Assembly: GCA_002898375.1 (NCBI GenBank)
Contig: BEIN01000014.1
Location: forward strand, 6,712 to 70,711
Source: a bacterium HR37
GTDB lineage: Bacteria > Desulfobacterota_D > UBA1144 > Nemesobacterales > CSP1-2
Direction: 5' to 3'
Length of the DNA stretch: 64,000 nucleotides
The translations under genes and the position numbers were made by a program. The stretch's first letter is position 1; each line of letters starts with the position of its first letter. Under the pieces are notes generated by a model. It was not told the origin of the DNA and did not search any database. It saw nothing but the letters and a program-made list of their open reading frames with translations. Below are positions 14,071 to 63,537 of the stretch, one piece after another.

Positions 14071-15020
14071 TATCCCCCCTCCCTAATGGAAGCAGTTATA
14101 CTCATCTTATCGGAAGATTCCTCAAATTCTTTAATAAGTTCTAAAGGATTTATACTCTTGCCATGGTATATTACTTCAAGGTGCAGGTGGGGTCCAGTGC
14201 TTGTTCCTGTATTGCCAAGTATTGCTATAGGGGTGTTAGAATCTACACTATCTCCTTCTTTAACAAGGTTTGCTTTGTTATGTGCGTACTTGCTTACCAG
14301 CCCATTTCCATGGTCTATGACTATAACATTACCGTATCCCGGCTTTTCCCCGCTAAAAATCACCTTACCTTCCTTTATCGGGCGTATTTCTGTGCCAATT
14401 GGAGCTGCTATATCAATACCCTTATGAAAATCCATATTCCCGTATACTGGATGGAAACGCATACCAAAGTGTGAGCTTATTCTACCGTTAACAGGTGGTG
14501 AGAAGGAACCACCATCGGGTTTTTTAATAGTTGAGTTTGTGTTTTTATATTGGTTTAACTTCTTATAAGCTAGTCTGGATTCACCGATAGGGGATGAGGA
14601 TAAGTTGTAATCCCTTTGTGCGCCTTTGGGTTTTATTCTCTCCCCGGAAATCTGCTTTGCGTCTAAAGGGGTATTTGTCTTTTCGTTATCCATATTACCA
14701 ATTCTTTTCTCCAACTCTCTAACCAGTATGTCCTGAAGGCCTATTCCTCTCTGGGAGAGGACCCTTGCAAGCTCTAGATCAAACATGCTTGTATTTACCT
14801 CTTTCCCAAAGTCACTTTTTGTTTCCACTGTGCTTCTCATTGCCTTTATCATCTCATATATAAAGAGTGATTCCATTTCCCTTGCAACGGATTTTATAAC
14901 CTGGGGGGAGATCTTTGACTTATCCTGTACCAAGCCCTTAAGCTCCTGCAGGTTTCTGTAGTAGGTAGCCGAAGTGTTTTGGTAAAGCTCTGACCTAAAA
15001 CCTGTTTTAACACTCATCAT
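14070..15020 (-). CDS. flgJ: FlgJ: N-terminal rod-binding domain fused to a C-terminal peptidase M23 (LytM) domain
   Basis: N-terminal REMESLFIYEMIKAMR (Rod_binding); C-terminal HKGIDIAAPIGTEI...GNVIVIDHGNG...GTSTGPHLHLEV (M23 zinc-binding HxxxD...HxH). Confidence 0.75.
   Translation of the reverse strand: MMSVKTGFRSELYQNTSATYYRNLQELKGLVQDKSKISPQVIKSVAREMESLFIYEMIKAMRSTVETKSDFGKEVNTSMFDLELARVLSQRGIGLQDILVRELEKRIGNMDNEKTNTPLDAKQISGERIKPKGAQRDYNLSSSPIGESRLAYKKLNQYKNTNSTIKKPDGGSFSPPVNGRISSHFGMRFHPVYGNMDFHKGIDIAAPIGTEIRPIKEGKVIFSGEKPGYGNVIVIDHGNGLVSKYAHNKANLVKEGDSVDSNTPIAILGNTGTSTGPHLHLEVIYHGKSINPLELIKEFEESSDKMSITASIREGG
14106..14133 (-). promoter_or_regulatory. sigma28-type promoter TAAAGAAT-N11-TCCGATAA upstream of flgM (inside the 3' end of flgJ)
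   Basis: Read from the reverse complement; ~30 nt upstream of the flgM start. Confidence 0.4.
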
Positions 15021-23159: not shown

Positions 23160-23186
23160 TAAAGTTTTTCTTTTAAGTTCCGATAA
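23160..23186 (+). promoter_or_regulatory. sigma28 promoter TAAAGTTT-N11-TCCGATAA
   Basis: Near-perfect FliA consensus read directly, ~50 nt upstream of the 23234 ORF heading the REC/HD-GYP/motAB gene string. Confidence 0.6.
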
Positions 23187-23233: not shown

Positions 23234-23452
23234 ATGAGTGTGTTTTTCCCTCCTAAAATCAACGAACTTTCCAAGATATACAACAGGTACTCAAAGGTTA
23301 AATCATCTTTAGAGAGGCAATCTGTAGTTTCAGATAAGGGTCAGGGAGAATCCAGGGTGGATACTGTAGATATATCTTCGGAAGCTAGGAGAAAACTCGT
23401 TCGCAGTCAGATCAAAGGTGAGGTGCTCGATAGAATCCGAAAAGGAGGGTAG
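23234..23452 (+). CDS. small FlgM-like protein (second putative anti-sigma-28 family member)
   Basis: 72 aa; ESRVDTVDISSEARRKL resembles the FlgM core; immediately downstream of a sigma28 promoter. Confidence 0.3.
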   Translation: MSVFFPPKINELSKIYNRYSKVKSSLERQSVVSDKGQGESRVDTVDISSEARRKLVRSQIKGEVLDRIRKGG

Positions 23453-23453
23453 T

Positions 23454-24035
23454 ATGGAGAAAAAGGACTTTAAGATACTTGTTGTGGATGATGACGATAT
23501 GGTTAGAGAGTTTGTTTCCTCAGTCTTAATCAAGCAAGGATACAGTGTGATTTCGGCAAGGGATGGATTTGATGGGCTCAGAATGCTTCTTATGGTTGAG
23601 GATATAAAGCTGGTTATAACGGATCTCAAGATGCCTGGTGCCAGTGGTATGGATATACTTGAGTATACGCAAAAAAACAATCCTGATATTGCGGTCGTAA
23701 TACTTACAGGTTTTGGCACAATCGAGGATGCCCTTGAGGCTGTTACAAAGGGAGCCTTTGACTATCTAACAAAACCCTTTAAGGTTGAGGAAATTGTGTT
23801 TGTTGCTGAGAAGGCTTTTAAACGGGAAATAATAGTGTGTGAAAACAGAGAATTGAAAAGGATTCTAAGGGATACCTATCGTGATATAGGAACGGTAAGG
23901 GATATAATTAACAGCAACGATGCTGGTGTGGTATCCAGGTGGATGGACAGAATGAACAGGTTAAAGGCTATGAATGTTCTTACCGAATCAGAGATAAAGG
24001 TACTAAGGGAAAAGATTGTAAAGACCAATGCATAA
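23454..24035 (+). CDS. response-regulator receiver protein with ~70 aa C-terminal extension
   Basis: ORF track starts at 23418; likely start is ATG 23454 after SD AAGGAGGG (MEKKDFKILVVDDDD...VITDLKMPGASGMDI...LTKPF). Confidence 0.7.
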   Translation: MEKKDFKILVVDDDDMVREFVSSVLIKQGYSVISARDGFDGLRMLLMVEDIKLVITDLKMPGASGMDILEYTQKNNPDIAVVILTGFGTIEDALEAVTKGAFDYLTKPFKVEEIVFVAEKAFKREIIVCENRELKRILRDTYRDIGTVRDIINSNDAGVVSRWMDRMNRLKAMNVLTESEIKVLREKIVKTNA

Positions 24036-25533
24036 CGGAAAGATACTGATAGTGGATGATGATCCCTTTGTAAGGGAATTCCTCTCTGAGATCCTTTCTG
24101 ATAAAGGCAGTTATGAGGTAGATGTTGCAGTAGATGGATTGGAAGGTCTAGAGAAAATAGGCAGACAGGACTACGATGTTGTTTTTACTGATTTATGTAT
24201 GCCCAGGTTAAATGGTTTTGAGTTTTTAAGGGAGGTCAAAAGACTGGAGCCTGTGTTGCCTGTAGTTGTAATCACAGGGTTTTCAACCATAGAAAATGCG
24301 GTAAATGCCATGAGGGAGGGGGCAAGTGATTTTATAGAGAAACCGTTTCAGGTTGATAAGGTAGTTTCATTAGCGGAAAGATTGGTAAATCAGAAGAGAC
24401 TTTTAGGAGGGCTTACCTCAAAGAAAAGGTATCGTCTTTCCCTGGAGACGCTAAATGCCCAGTTATTTAAAACGCTTCAGGAGATCTCAACCCTGCATAC
24501 TGTAAGTACAGAGCTTGATAACCTATACGATAACTCTGATATATACCGCAGGGTTGTGGAGATGGCTTTAAAGTTACTTCCAGTGCGAGAGGCTTTATTT
24601 GGAATCATTGATGGAAATCGTTTGAAGATAAAGAGCTCCATAGGAGTACCCAATTTTAGGGATGAGATTGAGTTTAGGGGTTCGTACATTGAAAGAGTTG
24701 TTAAGAGCAGAACCCATCTTGTTGTAAAGCCAGGTGAGTTTAATCCTGTTGACAACTCCAGGATTACCTCACCCATCCTGTGTATTCCTATCAATATAAA
24801 TGGTGAGACAATCGGTATATTAAACCTTTCTAATAAACCCGATGGCTCATCCTTTACCGATGATGAGATCCACCTTGCTCTAAATTTTGTTCAAAAAGTT
24901 GGCCTTCGATTGGAAAACAACGCTTTATATGAAACCGTCTATAGCAATCTCATTAACACCTTAAAATCGCTTGTTGCTATAATCGAAGCACGAGATCCCT
25001 ATACCAAACAGCATTCGGAAAGAGTTACTCTCTATTCTTTGGAAATAGCCGAGATGATTGGATTAAGCAACGAAGAGAAAGAGGTCTTAAAATTTGGTGG
25101 TTACCTTCATGATATAGGAAAGATTGGGGTAAGAGACACAATACTTCTTAAACCCGGAAGACTAACACCTGAGGAGATGGCAGAGGTTAGGTTGCATCCG
25201 TTAATAGGTGATCGAATAGTACAACCTGTGCAATTTCTTGAGAAGGAAAGGGAATTGATTCTGTATCATCATGAAAGAATAGATGGAAGGGGTTATCCTT
25301 ACGGATTAAAGGGAGAGGAGATCCCGTTTGTGGTGCGCATACTAAGTGTTGCTGATGCATACGATGCCATGACCTCCTCTAGGGCTTATAGGCCTGCCAA
25401 ACCTCATGAGGTTGCAATTGAGGAGATAAAATACGGTGTAAATACGCAATTTGACAAAGAGGTTGTAAAGGCTTTCTTAAACACGGAGACAGGAAAAGGA
25501 AGAAAGAAAAAGAGAAAAATCTCTGTGGATTAA
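24028..25533 (+). CDS. REC-GAF-HD-GYP response regulator, predicted c-di-GMP phosphodiesterase
   Basis: N-terminal receiver (ILIVDDDPF...VFTDLCMPRLNG), central GAF-like region, HD-GYP motifs YLHDIGKIGV and HHERIDGRGYP. Confidence 0.8.
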   Translation: MHNGKILIVDDDPFVREFLSEILSDKGSYEVDVAVDGLEGLEKIGRQDYDVVFTDLCMPRLNGFEFLREVKRLEPVLPVVVITGFSTIENAVNAMREGASDFIEKPFQVDKVVSLAERLVNQKRLLGGLTSKKRYRLSLETLNAQLFKTLQEISTLHTVSTELDNLYDNSDIYRRVVEMALKLLPVREALFGIIDGNRLKIKSSIGVPNFRDEIEFRGSYIERVVKSRTHLVVKPGEFNPVDNSRITSPILCIPININGETIGILNLSNKPDGSSFTDDEIHLALNFVQKVGLRLENNALYETVYSNLINTLKSLVAIIEARDPYTKQHSERVTLYSLEIAEMIGLSNEEKEVLKFGGYLHDIGKIGVRDTILLKPGRLTPEEMAEVRLHPLIGDRIVQPVQFLEKERELILYHHERIDGRGYPYGLKGEEIPFVVRILSVADAYDAMTSSRAYRPAKPHEVAIEEIKYGVNTQFDKEVVKAFLNTETGKGRKKKRKISVD

Positions 25534-29536: not shown

Positions 29537-31030
29537 TTATCGGCCAAGTAACGCTAGAACCTGCTGGGGAACGGTATTGGCTTGGGCTAGAACCGATATT
29601 CCAGCCTGCTGCATGATCAGTCCCTTTGTAAGGTTTGCTGTTTCCTGTGCAAAATCGGCGTCCACTATCCTTGAACGGGCAGCCGTTATGTTCTCACGAA
29701 TGTTATCGAGGTTTCTTACAACGGATTCAAACCTGTTCTGTTTCGCTCCCAGTATGGATCTCTGACTGTTTATAGAATCCATTGCACTCTTAAAAACAAG
29801 CATGGCAAGATTGGCTGATGCTGCAGTGGTTACCGTTTGTGCATTCACTGTGGAATCAGAAAGTGTTGCAGTTGCACTCTTTACCCCAGTTATGGAGAAA
29901 CCGGTTGTATCAGCATCAAATGAGACGGTTGTATCACCAAGTGAATCGTTAAGAACAATGGCTCCGTTTGCACCTGCATCAACCGATGTTGTTCCTGCGC
30001 TAAAGAAGTTTGTAATGTCGGAGTCAACGGAATCGTTTGCTGTAACGGTTATGGCAGCTCCGGTCCTGTTAATAAGAACGATGGCCGAGTCATCGCTGGT
30101 GCCATCGCCATTTAGGTCATCTACCCTGACCGCGGTAACGCCGTGCTGGGCGGTTTTGGCATTTATAGCGTTGACAAGATTATTGGCCAAATCCCCAAGC
30201 GTGGCTCCTGCTGCTGCTGCATCTATTGAAATTCCGTTTATTACAAGAGCTCCTGCAGCTATATCGGCTGCGGATGCAGCAGAGGGGTCAAAGGAGACAC
30301 CAACCAGGCCGTTTCCGTAGCCAAATGCTGTAACACCTGTGCTACTGGTATAGGAATTTATGGTGTTAATCTTTTCTGAGGAAAGTGTGTTTGCGGCAAA
30401 TTGGCTTCCCAGGCTAACCCCTTCTAGGGTTGGGGTGGCAGAGGATGCGTTTGCATACGCTCTTGCTATTCTGGTGGCAAGGTCAGAATTGCTCAGGTTG
30501 TTTATGGTTGCATAGTTTGTAGCTATACCTAACGTGGCTGGAGAAACGTTGGAGATGGAGATATTTATGGTTTCATTTACCTCTAACCCGACCTGTATAT
30601 CTGCACTAAAGCCTCCTGCAAGAAGTTTCTCACCGTTAAATCTGGTCTGGTTAACGATTCTGCTTAGTTCATCTATAAGCTGAGAAACTTCTTGATTAAG
30701 AGAGTTCCTGTCCTGAGTTGTGTTATAGCTTGCCGCCTGTTCTGCCAATTCGTACATTCTCTGCAGGTTGTTTACCATCTCATCCATTGCCCCTTCTGCT
30801 GTTTGCAGTATAGATATACCATCGTTGGCGTTTCTTATCGCAACTGTAAGACCCCTTATTTGAGTTGTCATTCTGGTAGATATGGCAAGTCCAGCTGCGT
30901 CATCTTTAGCTGAGTTGATCCTTAACCCGGAAGAGAGCCTCTGCATGGCAGTTTGTATAATTGGCTCTGTTTTGCTAAGGTTTCTCTGTGCATTGACAGA
31001 GAGTAAGTTTGTGTTAATTACCAGTGGCAT
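29537..31030 (-). CDS. fliC: flagellin
   Basis: 497 aa; conserved D0/D1 N-terminus MPLVINTNLLSVNAQRNL...RINSAKDDAAGLAI and C-terminus QQAGISVLAQANTVPQQVLALLGR. The central ~300 aa is an Ala/Thr/Ser/Gly/Asn-rich variable domain. Confidence 0.9.
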   Translation of the reverse strand: MPLVINTNLLSVNAQRNLSKTEPIIQTAMQRLSSGLRINSAKDDAAGLAISTRMTTQIRGLTVAIRNANDGISILQTAEGAMDEMVNNLQRMYELAEQAASYNTTQDRNSLNQEVSQLIDELSRIVNQTRFNGEKLLAGGFSADIQVGLEVNETINISISNVSPATLGIATNYATINNLSNSDLATRIARAYANASSATPTLEGVSLGSQFAANTLSSEKINTINSYTSSTGVTAFGYGNGLVGVSFDPSAASAADIAAGALVINGISIDAAAAGATLGDLANNLVNAINAKTAQHGVTAVRVDDLNGDGTSDDSAIVLINRTGAAITVTANDSVDSDITNFFSAGTTSVDAGANGAIVLNDSLGDTTVSFDADTTGFSITGVKSATATLSDSTVNAQTVTTAASANLAMLVFKSAMDSINSQRSILGAKQNRFESVVRNLDNIRENITAARSRIVDADFAQETANLTKGLIMQQAGISVLAQANTVPQQVLALLGR

Positions 31031-31129: not shown

Positions 31130-31156
31130 TTATCGGTTTTTTTTTGATAAACTTTA
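31130..31156 (-). promoter_or_regulatory. sigma28 promoter TAAAGTTT-N11-ACCGATAA for fliC, with ~100-nt leader
   Basis: Read from the reverse complement. The leader carries AAGGGAGG and the SD AAGGAGG. Confidence 0.7.
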
Positions 31157-46902: not shown

Positions 46903-47225
46903 CGGAAGCATACATTCAAACAGCTCTGGCTTTGGGTTTGGTAGTAGGTCTTATACTGGTTATGGGAGTTTTTATCGGGAAAAGACAGAAGAAAACGGAA
47001 GAGATTATAAAGATACTGGCATACAGATCCCTGGGGTTAAAAAAAGGCATTTCTGTTGTGAAGATTGGAAAGGAGATACTGGTTATCGGGGTTACTTCAA
47101 ATGACTTTAAGCTGTTAAAAACCATTGATGAGAATGAAATCGGATACGGTTTAACCAAAGAAATCGTGGATAGGATCAACAGGCTTAGAGAGATCAAGGA
47201 GGAGCTTCTAGGTGCAGATAAGTGA
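46899..47225 (+). CDS. fliO: flagellar biosynthesis protein FliO/FliZ
   Basis: 108 aa single-TM protein between fliN and fliP. Confidence 0.5.
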   Translation: MTEAYIQTALALGLVVGLILVMGVFIGKRQKKTEEIIKILAYRSLGLKKGISVVKIGKEILVIGVTSNDFKLLKTIDENEIGYGLTKEIVDRINRLREIKEELLGADK

Positions 47226-53951: not shown

Positions 53952-54719
53952 ATGTTGAGGGGAAAGACAGATGTGAAGCCTTTAGCCAGTTTGGACCTAG
54001 GGTATAAGAGGGAATTGGGTGAGGAGGAGAAGGAAAAGATAATAAGGGATTTTCTCCCTTTTATAAAGTACACAGCCTATAGGCTTGCATGGAGACTCCC
54101 ACCCCAACTTTCGGTAGAGGATCTTATAAGTGCCGGGATTGTAGGGCTTTTGGAGGCTCTTCAAAGGTATAAAGAGGGAGTGGCAAGGCTCAGTACCTTT
54201 GTAGAATCAAGGATAAGGGGAGCAATGCTTGATGAGCTTAGGTCTCAGAGTTGGATACCAAAGTCTATGAAAGAAAAAATCAGTGCGGTTAAGAAAACCT
54301 ATCTGGAGCTTGAATCAAAACTTGGCCGTCCACCAGAAGCAGAAGAGGTTGCTAAAAAGCTTAATATTTCGGTTGATGAGTACTATAAGATACTTCAGAG
54401 TGCAAATATGGAAGTGGTACTGAATTTTGAAAGTTTTAAGGAAAAAAACAGAAACGAAGAAAGCGTGGATCTGCTTGAGTATATTTGCGATCCTGATGCT
54501 AAAACCCCTCTTTCCGTATTAGAGGAGAGTCAGGTTAGGGAGGCAATTGCAAAAGTTATAGAAGAACTTCCTGAAAAAGAGAAGCTTGTTCTTTCACTTT
54601 ACTACTGGGAAGAGATGACCATGAAGGAGATAGGGAAGATTTTAAATATTACGGAGAGCAGGGTTTCGCAGCTACACAATCAGGCACTTTTAAGACTTAA
54701 AGCAAAACTCAATTTGTAG
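53952..54719 (+). CDS. fliA: RNA polymerase sigma factor sigma28
   Basis: 255 aa; sigma70 region 2 and region 4 HTH (MTMKEIGKILNITESRVSQLHNQALLRLK). Confidence 0.85.
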   Translation: MLRGKTDVKPLASLDLGYKRELGEEEKEKIIRDFLPFIKYTAYRLAWRLPPQLSVEDLISAGIVGLLEALQRYKEGVARLSTFVESRIRGAMLDELRSQSWIPKSMKEKISAVKKTYLELESKLGRPPEAEEVAKKLNISVDEYYKILQSANMEVVLNFESFKEKNRNEESVDLLEYICDPDAKTPLSVLEESQVREAIAKVIEELPEKEKLVLSLYYWEEMTMKEIGKILNITESRVSQLHNQALLRLKAKLNL

Positions 54720-56149
54720 TGGGTTTACCGCTCATGCAATTAAGTAGGCTTTTAAAGTTAATTGAAGAACTTTCCCACCCGGATCCTTTAAAAAGATACC
54801 GGGCTGCGGAGGCACTGGGACACGGGGATGAAAGGGCAATTTATCCCTTGATAAAGGCGTTACGTGATAGAGATCGGGGTGTCCAGGATGCAGCTATGCG
54901 TTCCCTTATATCCATAGGTGGTGAGGTCACAGCGTATATGGTGTTGCCACTTTTAAGAGATGAGCCATCGTTAATAAGTATGGCTATCGTAATACTGAAG
55001 GGCATAGGAACTGTGTCACTGCCCCTACTTCGTTCTCTTTTAAAGGATAAAGATGACACTGTCCGTCAACTTGCACTTTATCTTATCTCCGAGATCAAAG
55101 TATGCGATTATCCAGAGGATATTGTAAGGATCCTTGAAACGGATCCCAGTCCGAATGTTAGGGCATCTGCTGCACGTGTTCTCGGTGTTATTAAGTATAA
55201 AGAGGCCCTGCCCCAATTGGTTAACGCTTTAAGCGATAGTGAGTGGGTTTGCTTCTCAGCTCTTGAATCCATTGCCTTAATGGGAGATGAATCCTCTGCT
55301 GGGTTTATTGTTCCCCTTCTAAACAGTAAATCAGAGGCTATAAGGTGTGCTGCTGTTGAGGTACTGAGCAGGATAGGGGGAAAGGTATCTGTTAATGCAC
55401 TATTAAAGCACCTATCAAAAGCAGAGGGATTTGAAAAGAAAAACGTTGTAAAAAGCATGATTAAGATGGGAATATGTCCTGCTGTACCAGGGGTCTCTGA
55501 TGTGCTTATTGATATGCTAAGAAGTGGTGATTGGGGGGAGAAGATAACAGCTATAGAGAAGCTAATTGATCTTGGAGAAAAAGATGCAGTTTATCATATT
55601 GTGGACCTGGCAGGTTCACTTGATCCATCTGAGCCGGGAAATGAGGAGAGGATCTCTACCATTAAGGATCTTCTTTGTCGTTTTGGCTGTATAAGTGTTT
55701 TTGTAGATATAATTGCGGACCCATCTTTTAAATTCAGAGGAAAAACAATTGCAATTGATGTTATCAGAAGGCTTAGGTGCAGGGAAGCTATTCCTTCTCT
55801 CATGCAACTACTGGATACGGATATAAGGGATATAAGGCGGGCAAGTATGGAGGCTTTAGGAGATATGGGTTGTTACGGAGCAAAATCAGCAATGATTAAG
55901 GCGCTGGAGGATTTTGATGGCGGTGTAAGAAGATCTGCAGTTTTGGCTTTAGGGAAGCTAAAGGATAAGGGGGCTTTCGAACCGATTCTTAATCTGTTGT
56001 CCAGGGAGAAGAATCCAGAGGTAGTTGAGGAGGCAATTAAATCTCTTCTTGCAATAGATTCAGAAAGGTTCTTATTCTGCCTAAGTAGGCTGGATCCTGT
56101 ACTCAGAGAAATCGTTACTCGTTACAAAGAGCAACTGGAATGGGTATAG
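54719..56149 (+). CDS. HEAT-repeat (PBS-lyase type) protein embedded in the fliA-che operon
   Basis: 476 aa of ~14 tandem HEAT_EZ-like repeats (xxVRxxAAxALGxIGx). GTG start overlaps the fliA stop; ATG at ~54734 is an alternative start. Confidence 0.6.
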   Translation: MGLPLMQLSRLLKLIEELSHPDPLKRYRAAEALGHGDERAIYPLIKALRDRDRGVQDAAMRSLISIGGEVTAYMVLPLLRDEPSLISMAIVILKGIGTVSLPLLRSLLKDKDDTVRQLALYLISEIKVCDYPEDIVRILETDPSPNVRASAARVLGVIKYKEALPQLVNALSDSEWVCFSALESIALMGDESSAGFIVPLLNSKSEAIRCAAVEVLSRIGGKVSVNALLKHLSKAEGFEKKNVVKSMIKMGICPAVPGVSDVLIDMLRSGDWGEKITAIEKLIDLGEKDAVYHIVDLAGSLDPSEPGNEERISTIKDLLCRFGCISVFVDIIADPSFKFRGKTIAIDVIRRLRCREAIPSLMQLLDTDIRDIRRASMEALGDMGCYGAKSAMIKALEDFDGGVRRSAVLALGKLKDKGAFEPILNLLSREKNPEVVEEAIKSLLAIDSERFLFCLSRLDPVLREIVTRYKEQLEWV

Positions 56150-56946
56150 TACTTCGGGATTCTACATTTAAGCAGTTAAGGGATTTTGTATACGAAAAAA
56201 CCGGTATCTATATACCTGATTCAAAGAAGTACCTTGTTGAAAGCAGGCTGACCAAAAGGGTTTTGGAAAGAAACCTAAATACGTTTGAAGAGTATCTGTA
56301 CCTGATACAGTCAAACACAGATTTTAACGAACTTCTAAAGCTATATGATGCCATAACAACAAACGAAACATCTTTTTTTAGGGAGCCTAGGCAGTTTGAT
56401 GTGCTAGTTAAGCACATAGTGCCAAGTATTATACAAAAGCAAAAGACCGTAAAGATATGGTCTGCTGCATGTTCAACCGGTGAAGAACCGTATACGATTC
56501 GGATGCTTCTTATTGAGAATATGTTTGATACAGTTGAGGTAATTGCTTCAGATATAAGCGAAAGCGCTTTGGAGTCTGCAAGAAAGGGGGTCTACGGTTC
56601 GTATTCTGTAAGAAACGTTCCGGAGTTCTATCTTAGGAAGTACTTTAAAAACAGCGGCCAGAGCTATGAACTGGATGAGGTGGTAAAGAAAGGGGTTAGG
56701 TTTGTTAATGTTAATCTCGTGGATGAGAAGAGGATGAGGTTTATGCACGATATGGATGTCATATTCTGTCGCAATGTGCTTATCTACTTCGGTGAGGGTG
56801 CAAAGCAGAAGGCCCTATCACTGTTGTATGGATGTTTAAAGCCCGGAGGTTTTCTGTTTATAGGTTCCTCTGAGAGCCTTCATAATGTAACCCGTGCATT
56901 TAAACCCGTTATCATCGATGGGGTTATTGTGTATCAGAAGGAATAA
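56140..56946 (+). CDS. cheR: chemotaxis protein methyltransferase
   Basis: 268 aa; TNETSFFREP...IWSAACSTGEEPY SAM-binding CheR motifs. Confidence 0.85.
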   Translation: MGIVLRDSTFKQLRDFVYEKTGIYIPDSKKYLVESRLTKRVLERNLNTFEEYLYLIQSNTDFNELLKLYDAITTNETSFFREPRQFDVLVKHIVPSIIQKQKTVKIWSAACSTGEEPYTIRMLLIENMFDTVEVIASDISESALESARKGVYGSYSVRNVPEFYLRKYFKNSGQSYELDEVVKKGVRFVNVNLVDEKRMRFMHDMDVIFCRNVLIYFGEGAKQKALSLLYGCLKPGGFLFIGSSESLHNVTRAFKPVIIDGVIVYQKE

Positions 56947-56959
56947 AGGAGGTAATTCC

Positions 56960-57331
56960 ATGAGGGCACTTATAGTAGATGGTTGTAAAACCACCAGAAG
57001 GCTTCTAGGTATGTACCTTAAATCAATGGGTTTTGAGGTTGTTTTTGCTGAAAACGGACTGGATGCTTTAGAAAAGCTTGTAGATGCCGATATTAATCTT
57101 ATATTGGTTGAGCTCTATTTGCCTTATATGGATGGCATCGAGTTTGTAAAGACGGTTAAAACCAACCCTCTGAGTGTGGATATACCGGTTCTTATGGTAA
57201 CTACAGAGAGTGATAGGGAGAAAAAGGAGATGGCAATAAGAGCCGGGGTGGATGGCTACATTGTAAAACCTGTAACTGCTGATCTCTTATTGCGTCATAT
57301 TGAGGATGTGTTAAAAATCAAACCTATTTAA
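56960..57331 (+). CDS. CheY-like receiver with substituted phospho-acceptor (D-to-E) and DD-to-DG metal site
   Basis: ORF track starts at 56894; the likely start is ATG 56960 after GGAGG. Aligned with the adjacent canonical CheY: LIVDG (not VVDD), [13 protein letters not shown] (Asp57 position is Glu); Thr (LMVTTE) and Lys (YIVKP) are retained. Confidence 0.65.
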
Positions 57332-57341
57332 GGAGGTTTCT

Positions 57342-57740
57342 ATGTTTAATCCCAAGATGAAAATACTTGTTGTAGATGACTTTCCAACGATGAGACGCAT
57401 TATAAAAAACCTTCTTAAACAGCTGGGCTATGAGAACATAGAGGAAGCTGAGGATGGTATACAGGCGTATTCAAAACTGAAAAACAACGGATTTGAGTTC
57501 ATTGTATCTGACTGGAATATGCCCAATATGGATGGGTTTGAGCTTCTTAAAAAGGTTAGAAGTGATCCTCAGCTAAAGGATATTCCCTTTCTTATGGTTA
57601 CGGCCGAGGCTGAAAAGGATAAGGTGATAGAAGCTATAAAGGCGGGTGTGAGCAACTACATTGTAAAACCTTTTACGGCTGAGGTTCTTAGGGAAAAAAT
57701 GGACAGGATTATGGAAAAGCTCAAAAAACAGGAGCGGTAA
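57342..57740 (+). CDS. cheY: chemotaxis response regulator
   Basis: 132 aa; [13 protein letters not shown]...[12 protein letters not shown]...LMVTAEA...YIVKPF; all five conserved CheY residues present. Confidence 0.9.
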
Positions 57741-57745
57741 AGGAT

Positions 57746-59413
57746 ATGTCCGGTGAGATGGAGGAAGTGGTAACAGAGTTTATACTGGAGTCAAAAGAAT
57801 CGTTAGATAAGCTGGACTCTCTCTTTGTTGAATTTGAGGAGAAGGGATACGATAAAGCTATAGTCAATGAGATTTTCAGGATAGTCCATACTATTAAGGG
57901 TGCAGCTGGTTTTCTTGGATTTAAATCCATAGTGGATATATCTCACGGGGCAGAAAATATCTTAAAAAAGCTAAGGGATGGTGAGATCCCGCCTACAGAT
58001 AGGCTGATTGATGTACTCCTTAAAAGCACCGATAAACTTAGGGTTCTTATTAACCACATTGAAACAGGGAATAGTTTTAACGAGGATGTTGGTGAGTTGG
58101 TAAAAGAGCTTGAGGATTCCCTTAAGGAAGCACAATCAAAAGGGCAGAAGATGGTTCGGTCAGAATCTGCTCTGGAAGCCGAAAATCAGGTGCCGATAGA
58201 TTATGAGAAAGCGGTTTTTGAGAGAAGAGAGAGAGTCCAGACACTAAGGGTTGATGTGGAGAGGCTAAATGAGGTAATGGATCTTACGGGGGAGGCAGTT
58301 TTAATAAGAAACAGGCTTTTAAATATTGCAGGTTACTTTGAGAGAAAGTTTGCAGACGATCCGTATGTAAAGGGTTTCCTTGAAGCGGTCTCATCTCTTA
58401 ACCTTGTAACCTCTGATATGCAGATTGCTGTTATGAAAATGAGGATGCAGCCAATAAGCAGGGTTTTTAACAAATTCCCCCGCCTTGTAAGGGATATATC
58501 TAAATCACTCGGGAAAGAGGTTGAACTTAGGATTTCAGGAGAAAACACAGAAGTTGATAAATCGGTTATTGAGGAGATAGATGACCCCCTTGTTCATCTT
58601 ATGCGAAACGCAATAGACCATGGCATAGAAACCCCTGAGGAAAGAAGGGCAAAGGGTAAACATGAAAAAGGTATTATTTCCATAAATGCCTTTCAAAGGG
58701 GAAAACAGATTATTATAGAGATCTCGGATGATGGTAGAGGACTGGATGTGGAGAGGATAAAGGGAAAGGCAATCGAAAAGGGAATTATAACCGAGGATGA
58801 GGCACAAAGGATGTCGGAGGATCTGGCTATAAACCTTATCTTTACGCCAGGCTTTTCTACGGTTGATGTTTCTACCGAGTTTAGCGGACGTGGTGTTGGA
58901 ATGGATGTTGTTAAAACAGCCGTCTCTAAGCTAAATGGGTATATAGAGGTTTTTTCGAGAAAGGATAAGGGGACAACATTTAGAATAAGCATTCCCCTTA
59001 CCCTTGCAATAATTCAGGCCATAATAGTGCGGTCTATGGGGGTTCAGTATGCTATTCCTCTAAGCTCGGTTGAGGGGCTCTTAAAGTTGGGTTCCAGCGA
59101 TGTAAGAAAAGTATCAGGAAAGAGAATGCTTTGCGTACGTGAGAAAACCCTTCCGCTTTTTGACCTCTCAGCTCTACTGGGTTTTGGGTGTGGTGAGGGA
59201 ATACAATGTGAATACGGTGTTGTTATCGCGGTAGGGGAAAGACGGTTTTGTATTTCTGTGGATGAGCTCCTTGGACTTGAGGAGATTGTGGTTAAACCAA
59301 TTACTGGCTTGGATGTATCATCTTCCTACGTTGTCGGAGCAACAATAACTGGAGATGGAAGTGTTGTGCTTATTCTTGACCCATCGGGAATTGCAAGGGG
59401 TATTTTTGGATGA
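57746..59413 (+). CDS. cheA: chemotaxis histidine kinase
   Basis: 555 aa; Hpt (HTIKGAAGFLGF), dimerisation and HATPase domains (N box DHGIE, G1 DDGRGLD, G2 GRGVGMD), C-terminal CheW-like domain. Confidence 0.9.
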   Translation: MSGEMEEVVTEFILESKESLDKLDSLFVEFEEKGYDKAIVNEIFRIVHTIKGAAGFLGFKSIVDISHGAENILKKLRDGEIPPTDRLIDVLLKSTDKLRVLINHIETGNSFNEDVGELVKELEDSLKEAQSKGQKMVRSESALEAENQVPIDYEKAVFERRERVQTLRVDVERLNEVMDLTGEAVLIRNRLLNIAGYFERKFADDPYVKGFLEAVSSLNLVTSDMQIAVMKMRMQPISRVFNKFPRLVRDISKSLGKEVELRISGENTEVDKSVIEEIDDPLVHLMRNAIDHGIETPEERRAKGKHEKGIISINAFQRGKQIIIEISDDGRGLDVERIKGKAIEKGIITEDEAQRMSEDLAINLIFTPGFSTVDVSTEFSGRGVGMDVVKTAVSKLNGYIEVFSRKDKGTTFRISIPLTLAIIQAIIVRSMGVQYAIPLSSVEGLLKLGSSDVRKVSGKRMLCVREKTLPLFDLSALLGFGCGEGIQCEYGVVIAVGERRFCISVDELLGLEEIVVKPITGLDVSSSYVVGATITGDGSVVLILDPSGIARGIFG

Positions 59414-60648
59414 GTGCAATATCAAAGGAGGAAATCATGGAGCAGTATATTGGATTTTATCTCGACCAAAATGAGTATATGATTCCTGTATTAAATGTAC
59501 GGGAGATTATAAATATGCCCCCTATAACAAGGATTCCCCTGGCTCCTGCCTATATCGAAGGGGTTACAAACTTGAGAGGAGTTGTGGTTCCTTTGGTTAA
59601 TCTCAAAAAGCTTATGGGATTGAAGGGGATGGAAAAGAATGAGGCGGTAGGTTATGAATTGGGTAATAAGGTTATCATAATAACTCATGGAGGCATGCTT
59701 TTTGGTGTGGTTGTAGATAAGGTAAGCGGTATAATAAGTGTGGAGGAATCAAGTATTGAAGCAACAGAGAGTGTTTTCCACAGCTCTTTAGAGCAAGCTG
59801 AGGGTATAGTTAAACTTAAAGACCGGGTTGCTGTTTTGCTTGATACAAAGAGGTTGCTTCCCGAAGGAGAGCTGGAGGTGTTTGAGGATCTTCTGGTTTC
59901 TTTTAAGGAAAGAGAAGATGGGAAGGTTGAGTTAACCAAAAAAGTTCAGACGATGGGTGGAGAAATTACGGTTAAGGAGCTTAAGGATGCAAGGGATTTC
60001 TTTGAAAAAAGGAAAGCGGACTCTGGTGATCCAAGATATATGGTTCTTGATGATATAGTGGATTTTATAAATGCCCTTGCTGAATGTGACTATGATAGAG
60101 CGGATAGGGTTATTCAGAACATGATAAAGAAGGGACAGGATGAACTTTTTAGTGAGATAGGGAAAATAACAAGGAAACTTCATGATACTATTAAGAGCTT
60201 TAAACAGGCTATTGATCCAAAGATAAAGGAAGTGGCGATGAGAGAGATACCTAGTACAATCGAGTCACTTGAGTTTGTTATTGAGAAATCAGAAGAAGCT
60301 GCAAATAAAACAATGAGCATAGTTGAGAAGTATATACTGGGTATGGATGATCTTGATACCCATATAAAGAGGCTTAGCGGACCGGAAGTATCGGTAGAGT
60401 ACCTAAAGAACTTTAAAAATAACCTGGAGGATGACCTGATTGAAGTGCTTACAACTCAGTCCTTTCAGGATATAACGGGACAGCTTATAAAGAAGGTAAT
60501 AAAGCTTATAGGGGATATAGAAGAGGAACTTGTAAGGCTTATAAAGAACTTTGGTGAAAGGGTGGAGGTGGGCTATAGAACTGAGGCAACTTCCCAGAAG
60601 ATAACCCAGGCCGATGTTGATGAGCTTTTAAGAGAGTTTGGGTTCTAA
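59410..60648 (+). CDS. CheW-like domain fused to a CheZ-like CheY-P phosphatase domain
   Basis: N-terminal ~150 aa CheW fold (YIGFYLDQNEYMIPVLNVREII...GVTNLRGVVVPLVNL). C-terminal region has the CheZ catalytic motif TQSFQDITGQLIKKVIKLI and a CheZ-like C-terminal CheY-docking helix ADVDELLREFGF. Probable start at the internal ATG ~59437 after AGGAGG. Confidence 0.7.
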   Translation: MSAISKEEIMEQYIGFYLDQNEYMIPVLNVREIINMPPITRIPLAPAYIEGVTNLRGVVVPLVNLKKLMGLKGMEKNEAVGYELGNKVIIITHGGMLFGVVVDKVSGIISVEESSIEATESVFHSSLEQAEGIVKLKDRVAVLLDTKRLLPEGELEVFEDLLVSFKEREDGKVELTKKVQTMGGEITVKELKDARDFFEKRKADSGDPRYMVLDDIVDFINALAECDYDRADRVIQNMIKKGQDELFSEIGKITRKLHDTIKSFKQAIDPKIKEVAMREIPSTIESLEFVIEKSEEAANKTMSIVEKYILGMDDLDTHIKRLSGPEVSVEYLKNFKNNLEDDLIEVLTTQSFQDITGQLIKKVIKLIGDIEEELVRLIKNFGERVEVGYRTEATSQKITQADVDELLREFGF

Positions 60649-60653
60649 AGAAG

Positions 60654-61688
60654 ATGATAAGGGTTCTTATAGTTGATGACTCAGCATTTATGAGAAATGC
60701 CCTAAAGACCATGCTTTCTTCCGATCCCGAGATCGAGATTGTAGGTGTTGCACGGGATGGAGTAGAAGCAATAGAGAAGGTTATGAGTTTAAACCCTGAT
60801 ATAGTGACAATGGATGTAGAAATGCCCAGAATGGATGGTCTTACAGCACTAAAACGTATTATGGAGATAAAACCCGTTCCGGTAATTATCGTAAGTTCTC
60901 TGACGTCTGAGGGAGCAAAGGTTACACTTGATGCCCTTGATATCGGTGCTGTGGATTTCATCCCCAAAAACCTATCCGAGCTTTCAGTAGATATTGTGAA
61001 GTTAAAAGAATTGCTTATTGAGAAGGTGAAAAAAGTTGCCGGGAGAAAAAATATAAGAAAAAGGGTAAGTCCCTTTCCTTATAAATCAAACGAGGTTAAC
61101 AGGGCTCACCTAACCTCAAGTAGAAAAATAGGGGTCGTTGCTATAGGAACCTCAACAGGAGGTCCAAGGGCACTTCAGGAGATCATCCCAAAACTGCCAA
61201 AGAACTTTCCGGTTCCAATTGTAATTGCCCAGCATATGCCTGCAACCTTTACCGGACCCTTTGCCGAAAGACTAAACCAGATAAGTCAGATTACAGTTAA
61301 AGAAGCTGAGGATGGAGAGGTCTTGAAACAAGGGGTTGCTTTTATCGCACCGGGAAGGGGGCATATGAGACTGCGAAAAAGGGGTATAGAAACCGTTATC
61401 TCCATAACAAGTGATGATGAGTATATATACCGCCCATCGGTTGATCTTCTTATGACCTCAGTTGCAGAGTGTTTTCCGGGAAAGGCCCTTGGTGTGATAC
61501 TTACCGGTATGGGAAATGACGGTCTTAAGGGTATTTCTGCCTTAAGAGAAAGTGGGGGAAAGGTGATTGCACAGAATGAGGAGACGTGTGTGGTATATGG
61601 AATGCCAAAGGCAGTGGTTGAGGCAGGATTGGCGGATAAGGTTTTACCTCTGGAAGATATAGCTGGTGAGATAGTGAGTTCTCTCTAA
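60654..61688 (+). CDS. cheB: chemotaxis methylesterase/deamidase
   Basis: REC (ILIVDDSAFMR...VTMDVEMPRMDG) + CheB catalytic domain (VAIGTSTGGPRAL...). Confidence 0.9.
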   Translation: MIRVLIVDDSAFMRNALKTMLSSDPEIEIVGVARDGVEAIEKVMSLNPDIVTMDVEMPRMDGLTALKRIMEIKPVPVIIVSSLTSEGAKVTLDALDIGAVDFIPKNLSELSVDIVKLKELLIEKVKKVAGRKNIRKRVSPFPYKSNEVNRAHLTSSRKIGVVAIGTSTGGPRALQEIIPKLPKNFPVPIVIAQHMPATFTGPFAERLNQISQITVKEAEDGEVLKQGVAFIAPGRGHMRLRKRGIETVISITSDDEYIYRPSVDLLMTSVAECFPGKALGVILTGMGNDGLKGISALRESGGKVIAQNEETCVVYGMPKAVVEAGLADKVLPLEDIAGEIVSSL

Positions 61689-61694
61689 TTACCC

Positions 61695-61721
61695 TAAAGT
61701 TTCCCGTTATAAAACCGATAA
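61695..61721 (+). promoter_or_regulatory. sigma28 promoter TAAAGTTT-N11-ACCGATAA downstream of cheB
   Basis: Read directly: CCTAAAGTTTCCCGTTATAAAACCGATAAT. Confidence 0.5.
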
Positions 61722-61908: not shown

Positions 61909-63537
61909 ATGGACTTCTTTAGGAATGTAAATACTCGATCGAAACTCATTATGTGTTTTGCTGTTTTGATGGTGGTTATTTTAATTCCGGGTGCAATGAA
62001 TCTATATCAACTTATGTCTATGAAAGAATCAATACAGATGATATATAAAGACCGGTTAATACCACTTGTTGATCTTGGTGAAATAAGTTATGAACTTTCA
62101 AATCTAAGAATAGGAGCTCTACAGATTGTAGGTGAGCCTGATGAATCTAAAAGAAGGGCTATATTTGAGAGGGCTAAAAACAGTGTAGTAAAAATTGAAA
62201 AGCTTATTGAGAAGATCAGCAGAACAAACCTTGTACCCGAGGAGAAAAAGGTATTAGATGAGCTTATTGTGGCATGGAACAGCTACAATATATCAAGACA
62301 GAATACCTACAATTTGGCAATTGAAGGAAAGCTTGAAGAGGCAAGACAAAATGCCCAGACGGATGCAGCAGTTAAGTTCAAAAGCGTTGCAGAGAAGATT
62401 CAAAGATTGATTCAGATACAAGATGAGGTTACCAAATCTGTATATGAGGAAGCCTCTAAGAGCTATGTGTCTTCAAGAAATACAATAATAGGGCTAGGTA
62501 CTTTTGCAGTTGTAATAGCATCTGCCTTTGTGCTGGTTCTTACAAAACTCATAGCAAATCCCCTTGCTGATTTTACCAATATAGCTAACAGAATAGCAAA
62601 TGGTGAGCTTGATGTAACGATTGAATCAAGAGGAAGAGATGAGATAGGACAGTTATCCGGTGCCATGAAAAAGATGTTAGAGAATCTAAAGGAGATTATA
62701 GGAGGTATAAAGTCGTCTGCTGACAACCTTGCTTCTGCAAGTCAGCAACTTTCGGCAAGTTCAGAGCAGATGTCAAAGGGAATTGCACAGCAGGTGAGCA
62801 AAGCATCTCAGATTGCAACATCCTCAACTGAGATGTCTCAGAGCATAGTTGATATAGCAAAGAATGCTTCAGATATGGCTTCATTTGCTACTGAGGCTGT
62901 AAGGGTAGCACGTGAAGGGGAGAGAGAAGTTAGTAAATCCATAGAGGAGGTTAATGCAATAGCAAGTGTGGTGAACGAATCTTCGGGTCTTATAGTATCT
63001 CTTGGTAGCCGTTCAAGGCAGATAAGTGAAATAGTAACCGTAATAAAAGACATTGCTGATCAGACAAATCTTCTTGCTCTAAACGCTGCGATTGAGGCTG
63101 CAAGGGCTGGAGAGCAGGGAAGGGGGTTTGCCGTGGTTGCAGATGAGGTACGAAAACTTGCTGAGAGAACCACAAAGGCAACACAGGAAATAGAGGGGAT
63201 GATAAAGACCATTCAGGGTGATGTGGACAGAGCCGTTTCATCCATGGAGGGTGCAACAAAGAAGGTTGAAAAGGGGGTTGAGCTTTCAAAAAAAGCAGGC
63301 AAAGCCCTACAAGATATAGTAAACAGCGTTACCAATCTTCAGTCAATGGTTCAGCAGATAGCTTCTGCAACTGAGGAGATGTCAGCTGTATCCGAGCAGA
63401 TAACTCAGGATATAGAAATGATTGCCGGTGTTACAAATGAAACATCTTCAAATGCTACCCAGATATCTCAGGCATCGGCTGATTTGGCAAGGCTTGCAGC
63501 TAGCCTTGAGGGTATGGTTTCACAGTTTAGGATTTAG
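61909..63537 (+). CDS. methyl-accepting chemotaxis protein with periplasmic sensor region, HAMP and MCP signalling domain
   Basis: 542 aa; TM1 near residue 15, TM2 near residue 200, HAMP, highly conserved hairpin tip [35 protein letters not shown]. Confidence 0.9.

What the first reader, a model, noticed from the sequence alone, without database searches (positions are those of the whole stretch)
54719..56149. HEAT-repeat (PBS-lyase type) protein encoded between fliA and cheR
A 476-aa all-HEAT-repeat protein is inserted in the sigma factor/chemotaxis operon, overlapping the fliA stop and cheR start, so it is co-transcribed with fliA, cheR, the pseudo-CheY, cheY, cheA and the cheW-cheZ fusion. 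HEAT_PBS proteins have been linked to chemotaxis proteins (CheY/CheD/CheC) in haloarchaea. No role is assigned in bacterial pathways. It may be a novel scaffold linking sigma28/FlgM or the motor to the Che proteins.
Basis: partly seen in the sequence, partly recalled or inferred. Interest (0 to 1): 0.5.

Follow-up and report, generated by a model that had tools for sequence, protein, structure and literature searches.

The report
CheR-coupled HEAT-repeat chemotaxis accessory protein
The gene is real and encodes an all-HEAT-repeat scaffold protein whose relatives almost always sit directly in front of the chemotaxis methyltransferase gene cheR, so it is probably an unstudied helper of chemotaxis adaptation, not a link to the flagellar sigma factor.

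Summary
The ORF at 54719..56149 (+) exists. It encodes a 476-aa protein, or more likely 471 aa from the ATG at 54734. It scores HEAT_2 E=2.5e-54, and AlphaFold models it at pLDDT 93 as 28 helices, about 14 HEAT repeats.

It belongs to a well conserved family, with more than 120 full-length homologues at 46-58% identity. Most are from Nitrospirota/Thermodesulfovibrionia and hot-spring Thermodesulfobacteriota-like MAGs.

- **Link to cheR:** in 80/80 genomic loci the gene is followed by cheR, then cheY, cheY and cheA. In 65/80 its stop codon overlaps the cheR start.
- **Link to fliA:** fliA lies upstream in only 48/80 loci. Where it is absent, a consensus sigma-28 promoter usually precedes the HEAT gene (21/28).
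- **Distant relatives:** nine of eleven sampled, from Desulfonatronum, Acidobacteriota and others, also sit immediately upstream of cheR in otherwise different che clusters. One carries an N-terminal receiver domain and others a PAS domain.

The best reading is a non-enzymatic scaffold that works with CheR, probably under CheY-type control. This is inferred, not shown. No HEAT-CheR fusion was found.

The sigma-28/FlgM scaffold idea is not supported. Interest is moderate.

The parts
54719..56149 (+). HEAT-repeat protein gene. It is 476 aa from the GTG at 54719; the likely true start is the ATG at 54734, giving 471 aa.
   Evidence: ORF; junction sequences; Pfam HEAT_2 2.5e-54; AF2 pLDDT 93 with 28 helices; start register
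54785..55108 (+). Most conserved N-terminal repeats (aa 23-130). This is the candidate partner-binding module.
   Evidence: Per-helix conservation of 0.70-0.88 across 77 orthologues
54878..54904 (+). Family signature GVQDAAMRS (aa 54-62)
   Evidence: Invariant columns in alignment A1. Used as the scan pattern that retrieved 144 relatives. Retained as GVQ[EQ]A in distant che-linked relatives.
55241..55258 (+). Family signature EWVCFS (aa 175-180)
   Evidence: Invariant in A1. Appears as (D/E)EWVxFS in P0277, P0308 and P0325, and as EQWVAFS in P0296.
56140..56946 (+). cheR (methyltransferase). Its start overlaps the HEAT stop by 10 nt.
   Evidence: Pfam CheR_N + CheR; overlap; the same coupling in 65/80 loci
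53952..54719 (+). fliA (sigma-28), immediately upstream
   Evidence: TIGR02479 FliA_WhiG 1.5e-74; upstream of the HEAT gene in 48/80 loci
56960..57331 (+). CheY paralogue 'CheYa', a degenerate receiver here (D13G, D57E, N59Y). It is a candidate regulator of the HEAT protein.
   Evidence: Response_reg 3.4e-22; residue mapping. A GGAGG-type ribosome-binding site lies before the ATG at 56960 (back-translated from the ORF translation, not read from the DNA).
57342..57740 (+). Canonical CheY (CheYb), with all phospho-site residues present
57746..59413 (+). cheA (Hpt, dimerisation, HATPase and CheW domains)
59410..60648 (+). cheW-cheZ fusion gene
   Evidence: Pfam CheW 2.7e-34 + CheZ 5.2e-32; full-length matches in most of the 80 loci
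60654..61688 (+). cheB
61695..61720 (+). Sigma-28-type promoter (TAAAG-N15-CCGATA) ahead of the MCP gene at 61909-63537. It shows that the consensus is in use in this genome. None lies before the HEAT gene here.
   Evidence: 6 sites against 0.12 expected; the flagellin gene also carries one

Best explanation
The gene encodes a non-enzymatic alpha-solenoid of about 14 HEAT repeats, a PP2A-PR65-like scaffold shape. It is a dedicated accessory protein of the chemosensory pathway and is made in a fixed ratio with the receptor methyltransferase CheR.

**Proposed mechanism (inferred).** The HEAT protein binds CheR and acts as its targeting or regulatory subunit at the receptor array. Its activity is set by a CheY-type receiver. 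In this operon that would act in trans, through one of the two CheYs encoded right after cheR. In some relatives it acts in cis, through a fused REC or PAS domain. This would give the kinase output a route back to receptor methylation.

**What is shown.** The HEAT fold, the conserved family, the invariant and mostly overlapping HEAT-cheR gene pair, sigma-28 promoters in front of the pair in relatives, and REC/PAS fusions in the same gene slot.

**What is inferred.** Physical binding to CheR, control by CheY, and any effect on methylation.
For: - **Fold:** HEAT_2 E=2.5e-54. The AF2 model has pLDDT 93 and 28 helices. The best global structural matches are the PP2A A-subunit and CAND1 scaffolds, TMq about 0.54. 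No catalytic family is matched above threshold.
- **Orthologous family:** more than 120 full-length homologues at 46-58% identity, with family-specific invariant motifs.
- **Synteny:** 80/80 genome loci have HEAT, cheR, cheY, (cheY, cheA) on one strand.
- **Translational coupling:** the HEAT stop overlaps the cheR start by 1-10 nt in 65/80 loci and lies within 30 nt in 74/80. In the window the overlap is 10 nt.
- **The pair survives operon reshuffling.** The layouts seen are:
  - HEAT-CheR-PilZ-ParA-CheW-CheY-CheA in two Desulfonatronum genomes;
  - HTH-HEAT-CheR-REC-REC-CheZ in two lineages;
  - MCP-CheW-HEAT-CheR-CheB-GAF-REC;
  - REC-CheA-CheW-MCP-HEAT-CheR-CheB.
  
  That is 9 of 11 distant relatives sampled.
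- **Signal input to the HEAT module:** a Zn-ribbon-REC-HEAT fusion (P0368) and PAS-HEAT fusions (P0376 by Pfam scan; P0313 by alignment of its N-terminus to P0376) occupy the same slot before cheR.
- **Published precedent:** Cpc7 binds CheY7.
- **Co-regulation with late flagellar and chemotaxis genes:** a sigma-28 consensus lies 33-145 nt upstream of the HEAT start in 21/28 loci that lack fliA, and in the fliA-HEAT spacer in about 18/49 others. The background rate is 0.024 per 300 nt.
- **Analogy:** alpha-solenoid (TPR) domains are fused to CheR in many pathways (PMC3447774).
Against: - There is no direct evidence of HEAT-CheR contact.
- No HEAT-CheR fusion was seen among 120 CheR homologues, the listed HEAT homologues or the full-length family members among 150 representatives.
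- Gene adjacency could partly reflect shared ancestry of the operons.
- The only experimentally studied relatives of this kind bind CheY/CheD/CheF, not CheR.
- Two of the 11 distant relatives have no che genes nearby.
- In the window itself no sigma-28 site precedes the gene.
- The CheYa receiver proposed as regulator is degenerate in this genome.
Confidence: 0.5

Rival explanations
1. It is a CheY~P-binding output or adaptor protein, like Myxococcus Cpc7 or haloarchaeal OE2401F. It would relay the phosphorylation signal to the motor or to another target, and its position next to cheR would be incidental.
For: Cpc7 binds CheY7 in a phosphorylation-sensitive way (the binding is cited in PMC11514114 and PMC9040617; the phospho-dependence is recalled from the Darnell 2014 abstract, which is not held). 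OE2401F interacts with CheD and CheF, and its deletion abolishes switching. Two CheY genes always follow cheR in this family. A REC-HEAT fusion exists.
Against: The bacterial flagellar switch (FliM/FliN, present in the window) already binds CheY directly. The neighbour kept through four different operon layouts is CheR, not a particular CheY or output gene. The Desulfonatronum layout places PilZ, ParA and CheW between the HEAT-CheR pair and CheY.
Confidence: 0.2
2. It is an assembly or positioning factor that recruits or stabilises the chemoreceptor array, for example at the flagellated pole, without regulating CheR activity.
For: The large PR65-like scaffold shape. Co-expression with flagellar genes through sigma-28. 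Co-occurrence with ParA-like and CheW genes in Desulfonatronum. The D. vulgaris cheA3 operon, which contains a parA homologue, is the one needed for motility (PMC3944678).
Against: ParA-like partners are absent from most layouts. The idea does not explain the specific overlap with cheR or the REC/PAS fusions.
Confidence: 0.12
3. One reading: a scaffold linking sigma-28/FlgM or the flagellar motor to the Che proteins.
For: It is immediately downstream of fliA in the window and in 48/80 loci.
Against: 32/80 loci lack fliA upstream, and about 24 of these have at least 2 kb of flank. The upstream genes there are GGDEF and a divergent fliL-fliP operon. The fliA-HEAT spacing is variable, 3-470 nt. 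In those loci the gene is a target of sigma-28, not a linked partner. Distant relatives sit in che clusters with no flagellar genes nearby.
Confidence: 0.05
4. It is a bilin-lyase-type enzyme, or an unrelated HEAT protein that merely hitch-hikes in the operon.
For: The best named sequence relatives are NblB, CpcE and CpcF and PDB CpcE 5n3u at 8e-12.
Against: All of these scores are far below the family cut-offs: 81 against 300, 63 against 330, and 50 against 220 bits. The similarity is generic repeat similarity; 129,988 proteins match the profile. Strict synteny at only 45-58% identity argues against hitch-hiking.
Confidence: 0.03

Closest known systems
Cpc7 of the Myxococcus xanthus Che7 system (Darnell et al. 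2014, J Bacteriol 196:3160)
   Same: A HEAT-repeat-only protein of about 27 helices, encoded in a bacterial che gene cluster, that binds a single-domain CheY. The che7 locus-tag order is CheY7-CheA7-CheW7-Mcp7-[MXAN_6961]-CheR7-CheB7 (PMC3945109). This matches the REC-CheA-CheW-MCP-HEAT-CheR-CheB layout seen here for distant relatives.
   Different: Che7 controls development, not flagellar motility. Sequence orthology with the window protein could not be tested because the Cpc7 sequence and the primary paper are not held. Whether Cpc7 is MXAN_6961 is my inference. No link to CheR has been reported, as far as the held papers show.
OE2401F, the HEAT_PBS protein of Halobacterium salinarum (Schlesner et al. 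2009, PMC2666748)
   Same: A HEAT_PBS-only protein encoded in the che/motility region. It interacts with Che proteins, and its deletion abolishes switching.
   Different: It is archaeal. It is always adjacent to CheF (DUF439) and acts towards the archaellum. No DUF439 gene is present here, and the motor here is a bacterial flagellum with FliM/FliN.
CheR-TPR fusion proteins (FrzF, WspC; Munoz-Martinez et al. 2012, PMC3447774)
   Same: An alpha-helical repeat module is associated one-to-one with the CheR methyltransferase.
   Different: There the repeats are TPR, short (often 2 repeats) and fused to the C-terminus of CheR. Here a separate protein of about 14 HEAT repeats is encoded upstream. No fusions were found.
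PP2A A-subunit (PR65) / CAND1-type HEAT scaffolds
   Same: They are the best global structural matches to the model, with TMq 0.52-0.54, and they act as scaffolds that hold an enzyme and its regulatory subunit.
   Different: They are eukaryotic, with 15-17% identity. This is an analogy of shape only.
CpcE/CpcF/NblB bilin lyase family and alphaRep / MTH187 / YibA HEAT_PBS proteins
   Same: The same repeat type. These are the top sequence matches in PDB and NCBIfam.
   Different: Scores are far below the family cut-offs. The context has no phycobiliproteins.

Membership tests
Pfam HEAT_2 / HEAT_PBS repeat proteins (alpha-solenoid) | Tandem helix-turn-helix repeats of about 30 residues that match the profiles above the gathering score | tested here: met
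   HEAT_2 182 bits (cut-off 27.7), HEAT_PBS 87 bits (cut-off 20.9). The AF2 model has 28 helices at pLDDT 93.
Phycobilin lyase / NblB family (CpcE, CpcF, CpeY, NblB) | A score above the NCBIfam equivalog cut-off | tested here: not met
   NblB 81 against 300, CpcE 63 against 330, CpcF 50 against 220, CpeY 33.5 against 600 bits
Phycobilin lyase / NblB family (CpcE, CpcF, CpeY, NblB) | Genomic association with phycobiliprotein genes | tested here: not met
   The neighbours are flagellar and che genes in the window and in 80/80 loci
Cpc7-type HEAT protein of chemosensory systems (Myxococcus Che7) | A HEAT-only protein encoded inside a che gene cluster | tested here: met
Cpc7-type HEAT protein of chemosensory systems (Myxococcus Che7) | Sequence orthology to Cpc7 | not testable with these tools
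   The Cpc7 sequence is not obtainable here and the primary paper is not held. Only the gene-order analogy is available.
Cpc7-type HEAT protein of chemosensory systems (Myxococcus Che7) | Direct, phosphorylation-sensitive binding to a single-domain CheY | not testable with these tools
   This needs a binding assay or complex prediction. The REC-HEAT fusion P0368 is indirect support.
Haloarchaeal OE2401F-type HEAT_PBS taxis protein | Adjacency to a CheF (DUF439) gene and an archaellum context | tested here: not met
   No DUF439 among the neighbours scanned. Bacterial fliM/fliN/flhA are present.
CheR-TPR type (repeat module physically joined to CheR) | Repeat domain and CheR domain in one polypeptide | tested here: not met
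   They are separate ORFs in different frames. All 120 closest CheR homologues are 266-292 aa with no HEAT domain.
Sigma-28 (FliA) regulon member | A TAAA-N15-GCCGATAA-type promoter directly upstream | tested here: inconclusive
   None lies before the gene in the window, which has no spacer. One is present before the orthologue in 21/28 fliA-unlinked loci and about 18/49 fliA-linked loci.
NCBIfam DVU0298 family / TIGR02270 HEAT proteins | A score above the curated cut-off | tested here: not met
   32 against 75 bits, and 37 against 207 bits

The most novel reading that the evidence does not exclude
HEAT-CheR is a two-protein adaptation module found in at least three bacterial phyla. The HEAT solenoid would be a regulatory subunit that places the methyltransferase CheR under control of a receiver (CheY~P in trans, or a fused REC) or of a PAS sensor. 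That would be a phospho- or signal-dependent feedback on methylation, parallel to the known CheB~P feedback and so far overlooked.
Probability: 0.25. Interest if true: 0.7.

Novelty: new variant of a known kind. Interest (0 to 1): 0.42.

Why it matters
CheR is usually treated as an unregulated enzyme, with CheB alone carrying the feedback. A conserved partner protein produced stoichiometrically with CheR, and in some lineages fused to REC or PAS input domains, would mean that methylation is itself regulated in many non-model bacteria. It would give a function to a large set of genes annotated only as 'HEAT repeat protein'. It would also link the isolated observations on Cpc7 and the haloarchaeal HEAT_PBS protein into one class. 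The hypothesis can be tested directly in Desulfovibrio, whose relatives carry the same gene pair, or with purified thermophile proteins.

Tried and rejected
- **Sigma-70 promoter and terminator scan of 49.5-64 kb:** fewer promoter-like sites than in shuffles, and no convincing + strand terminator within the operon. Uninformative.
- **Foldseek against PDB:** only generic solenoids (alphaRep, PP2A-A, CAND1, beta-catenin). No functional lead.
- **PDB sequence search:** designed alphaRep proteins, CpcE/F, MTH187 and YibA only. The entry 10lk 'HEAT repeat domain-containing protein' was not followed up.
- **AFDB50 fold search:** the library was unavailable.
- **Exhaustive profile search:** 129,988 hits, dominated by giant multi-HEAT proteins. 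The E-value alone does not delimit the family. Only single-stretch, full-length hits of 460-660 aa are orthologue-like.
- **Rosetta-stone search for HEAT-CheR fusions:** none among the HEAT homologues, the family-sized hits among the representatives or the 120 closest CheR homologues.
- **Literature:**
  - The primary Cpc7 paper and the myxobacterial chemosensory comparative paper are not held.
  - The Geobacter che paper and the D. vulgaris CheA3 paper do not mention HEAT proteins in their text.
  - No paper was found describing a HEAT-CheR pair or the Nitrospirota family.
- **A conserved 'pseudo-CheY' partner:** rejected. The D57E/D13G receiver is specific to the window.
- **A FliM-like CheY-binding peptide in the HEAT protein:** none seen by eye at either terminus.
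Full report
**Observation.** The ORF 54719..56149 on the + strand is present exactly as reported, at 476 aa from a GTG. The GTG shares its first base with the last base of the fliA TAG. The TAG stop at 56147-56149 lies 10 nt inside cheR, whose ATG is at 56140.

Homologues align from the internal ATG at 54734, and 471-aa versions occur in the same 90% identity cluster. The real start is therefore probably 54734, 14 nt after fliA. This does not change the picture of a tightly packed operon.

Pfam gives HEAT_2 E=2.5e-54 in five stretches, HEAT_PBS 1.3e-25 and HEAT 5e-25. An AlphaFold2 model built on 21 homologues has mean pLDDT 93 and consists of 28 helices, about 14 HEAT repeats, with no other domain.

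- upstream: flhA, flhF, flhG and fliA;
- downstream: cheR, a receiver with D13G/D57E/N59Y, a canonical cheY, cheA, a cheW-cheZ fusion, cheB and an MCP.

The array starts further upstream with fliL-fliM-fliN-fliO-fliP...flhB.

**A real family.** More than 120 full-length homologues have E<1e-134 at 46-58% identity. They come in two length classes, about 470 aa and about 615-635 aa, the longer with extra C-terminal repeats. Those that carry a source name are labelled Nitrospirota or Nitrospirae MAGs.

Members of the window protein's own 90% cluster are labelled 'bacterium HR37' and a hot-spring 'Deltaproteobacteria' MAG. The next cluster is labelled Thermodesulfobacteriota.

The alignment shows motifs that are not part of the generic HEAT consensus: GVQDAAMRSL, D-E-EWVCFSALE and AGSLDPSEP. 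Conservation is highest in the N-terminal repeats, aa 23-130.

No curated family model is reached. NblB, CpcE, CpcF, TIGR02270 and DVU0298 all score far below their cut-offs. An exhaustive profile search returns about 130,000 HEAT proteins, so generic similarity says nothing about function.

**Genomic context.** A scan of one genome per species found 144 relatives, of which 80 loci were kept.

- In 80/80 loci the HEAT gene is followed on the same strand by cheR and a cheY, and normally by a second cheY, cheA, cheW-cheZ and cheB.
- The HEAT stop overlaps the cheR start by 1, 4, 7 or 10 nt in 65/80 loci, and lies within 30 nt in 74/80. This is the classic arrangement for translational coupling.
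- fliA lies upstream in only 48/80 loci, with a spacer of 3-470 nt.
- In the remaining loci the upstream genes are a GGDEF gene and a divergently transcribed fliL-fliM-fliN-fliO-fliP operon.
- In 21 of 28 such loci a textbook sigma-28 promoter (TAAAGTAAT-N-TCCGATA) lies 33-145 nt before the HEAT start. About 18 of 49 fliA-linked loci have one in the fliA-HEAT spacer. The background rate is 0.024 per 300 nt.

The same consensus is clearly used in the window genome. It occurs at six sites against 0.12 expected, including in front of the flagellin, flgK-region and MCP genes. None precedes the HEAT gene here, because there is no spacer.

The HEAT gene is thus the first gene of a sigma-28-dependent che operon. 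In some lineages, including this one, that operon has become fused to the end of the fliA operon. The conserved partner is cheR, not fliA.

**Beyond the close family.** More distant full-length relatives were found through the representative search and a second homology search. They keep GVQ[EQ]A and [EQ]WVxFS motifs.

Eleven contexts were read, and nine have cheR immediately downstream in otherwise different clusters:
- HTH-HEAT-CheR-REC-REC-CheZ-(MotAB)-CheA;
- HEAT-CheR-PilZ-ParA-CheW-CheY-CheA in two cultured Desulfonatronum species. This layout recalls the parA-containing cheA3 motility operon of D. vulgaris;
- MCP-CheW-HEAT-CheR-CheB-GAF-REC;
- REC-CheA-CheW-MCP-HEAT-CheR-CheB-REC in Acidobacteriota and a soil lineage.

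Two relatives, of 794 and 1081 aa, are not che-linked.

In the same slot before cheR, one protein carries an N-terminal Zn-ribbon and receiver domain (P0368). Others carry an N-terminal PAS domain (P0376 by Pfam scan; P0313 by alignment to P0376).

**Interpretation.** A repeat-only solenoid has no catalytic site, so its output must be protein binding. The best global structural analogues are enzyme-organising scaffolds, the PP2A A-subunit and CAND1.

Only cheR is retained next to it through at least four operon architectures and at least three phyla, and the two genes are usually translationally coupled. I therefore think the protein most likely binds CheR and targets or regulates it at the receptor array.

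The REC and PAS fusions show that the HEAT module receives signals. Combined with the published Cpc7-CheY7 interaction in Myxococcus, this suggests that one of the two CheYs encoded after cheR controls it in trans.

All of these steps are inference from context. No HEAT-CheR fusion was found among 120 CheR homologues or among the HEAT homologues inspected. The only experimental data for this kind of protein concern CheY/CheD/CheF binding.

The main rival is a Cpc7- or OE2401F-like CheY-binding adaptor with no role for CheR. Array positioning is a further possibility.

**Comparison with what is known.** HEAT_PBS proteins in taxis gene regions are documented in haloarchaea. OE2401F is essential for switching and sits next to CheF.

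In bacteria the documented case is Cpc7 of the Myxococcus Che7 system. The statement that no bacterial role is assigned is therefore not accurate.

The che7 locus tags place an unnamed gene, MXAN_6961, between mcp7 and cheR7. This is the same order as the MCP-HEAT-CheR-CheB clusters seen here. Cpc7 may therefore itself be a CheR-adjacent HEAT protein, but I could not verify this.

CheR-TPR fusions are a functional analogy: a repeat module attached to CheR.

I found no paper describing a general HEAT-cheR gene pair, its presence in sigma-28-controlled flagellar che operons, or this Nitrospirota/Thermodesulfobacteriota family.

**Verdict.** It is a new variant of a known kind, HEAT-repeat accessory proteins of chemosensory pathways, and is of moderate interest. 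The hypothesis that CheR has a signal-responsive partner is concrete and testable.

Noticed in passing
window 56960-57331 (+): The first CheY after cheR is a degenerate receiver (D13G, D57E, N59Y; T87 and K109 are kept). Orthologues in almost all of the other 79 loci keep D57; the only other real exception is L004, with D57A. The Glu at the phospho-site could be a constitutive mimic.
   Followed up: partly
window 59410-60648 (+): A CheW-CheZ fusion protein (CheW aa 12-151, CheZ from about aa 245). Full-length matches occur in most of the 80 related loci, whereas distant clusters (L081, L085) have a separate CheZ.
   Followed up: partly
window 14108-14133(-), 23160-23185(+), 31131-31156(-), 47084-47109(-), 60389-60415(-), 61695-61720(+): Six exact sigma-28-type promoter matches (TAAAG-N15-17-CCGATA), against 0.12 expected. 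Four lie before sensible targets: flagellin at 29537-31030, the flgK region, a REC plus REC-GAF-HD-GYP pair at 23418-25533, and the MCP at 61909. Two are antisense inside fliO (47109) and inside cheW-cheZ (60415), and are unexplained.
   Followed up: partly
L089 974-3979 (protein P0368); L088 6001-8673 (P0376); L091 5001-7730 (P0313): Zn-ribbon-REC-HEAT and PAS-HEAT fusion proteins occupy the same position, immediately upstream of cheR-cheB, as the plain HEAT gene.
   Followed up: partly
L031 6407-7729 and L012 6517-7809: In the loci where fliA is not upstream, a GGDEF diguanylate cyclase gene directly precedes the sigma-28 promoter and the HEAT-che operon. Next to it is a divergent fliL-fliM-fliN-fliO-fliP operon.
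   Followed up: no
L083 and L084 (Desulfonatronum thiodismutans and D. lacustre): The HEAT-CheR pair is followed by PilZ, a ParA-like ATPase, CheW, CheY and CheA. This resembles the parA-containing cheA3 motility operon described for Desulfovibrio vulgaris.
   Followed up: no
alignment A1, C-terminus: Many short-form family members end in a conserved C-terminal Cys (…TC, …SC, …RC). The window protein ends in …EWV and lacks it.
   Followed up: no
L018 and L069 (both from MAG SURF_45): Two separate HEAT-cheR-cheY-cheY-cheA loci come from the same metagenome-assembled genome. This is either a true duplication of the whole operon or a mixed bin.
   Followed up: no
PDB entry 10lk chain d2: A recently deposited 291-aa 'HEAT repeat domain-containing protein', a chain of a large complex, matches the family profile weakly (E=8e-6). 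The nature of the complex was not checked.
   Followed up: no
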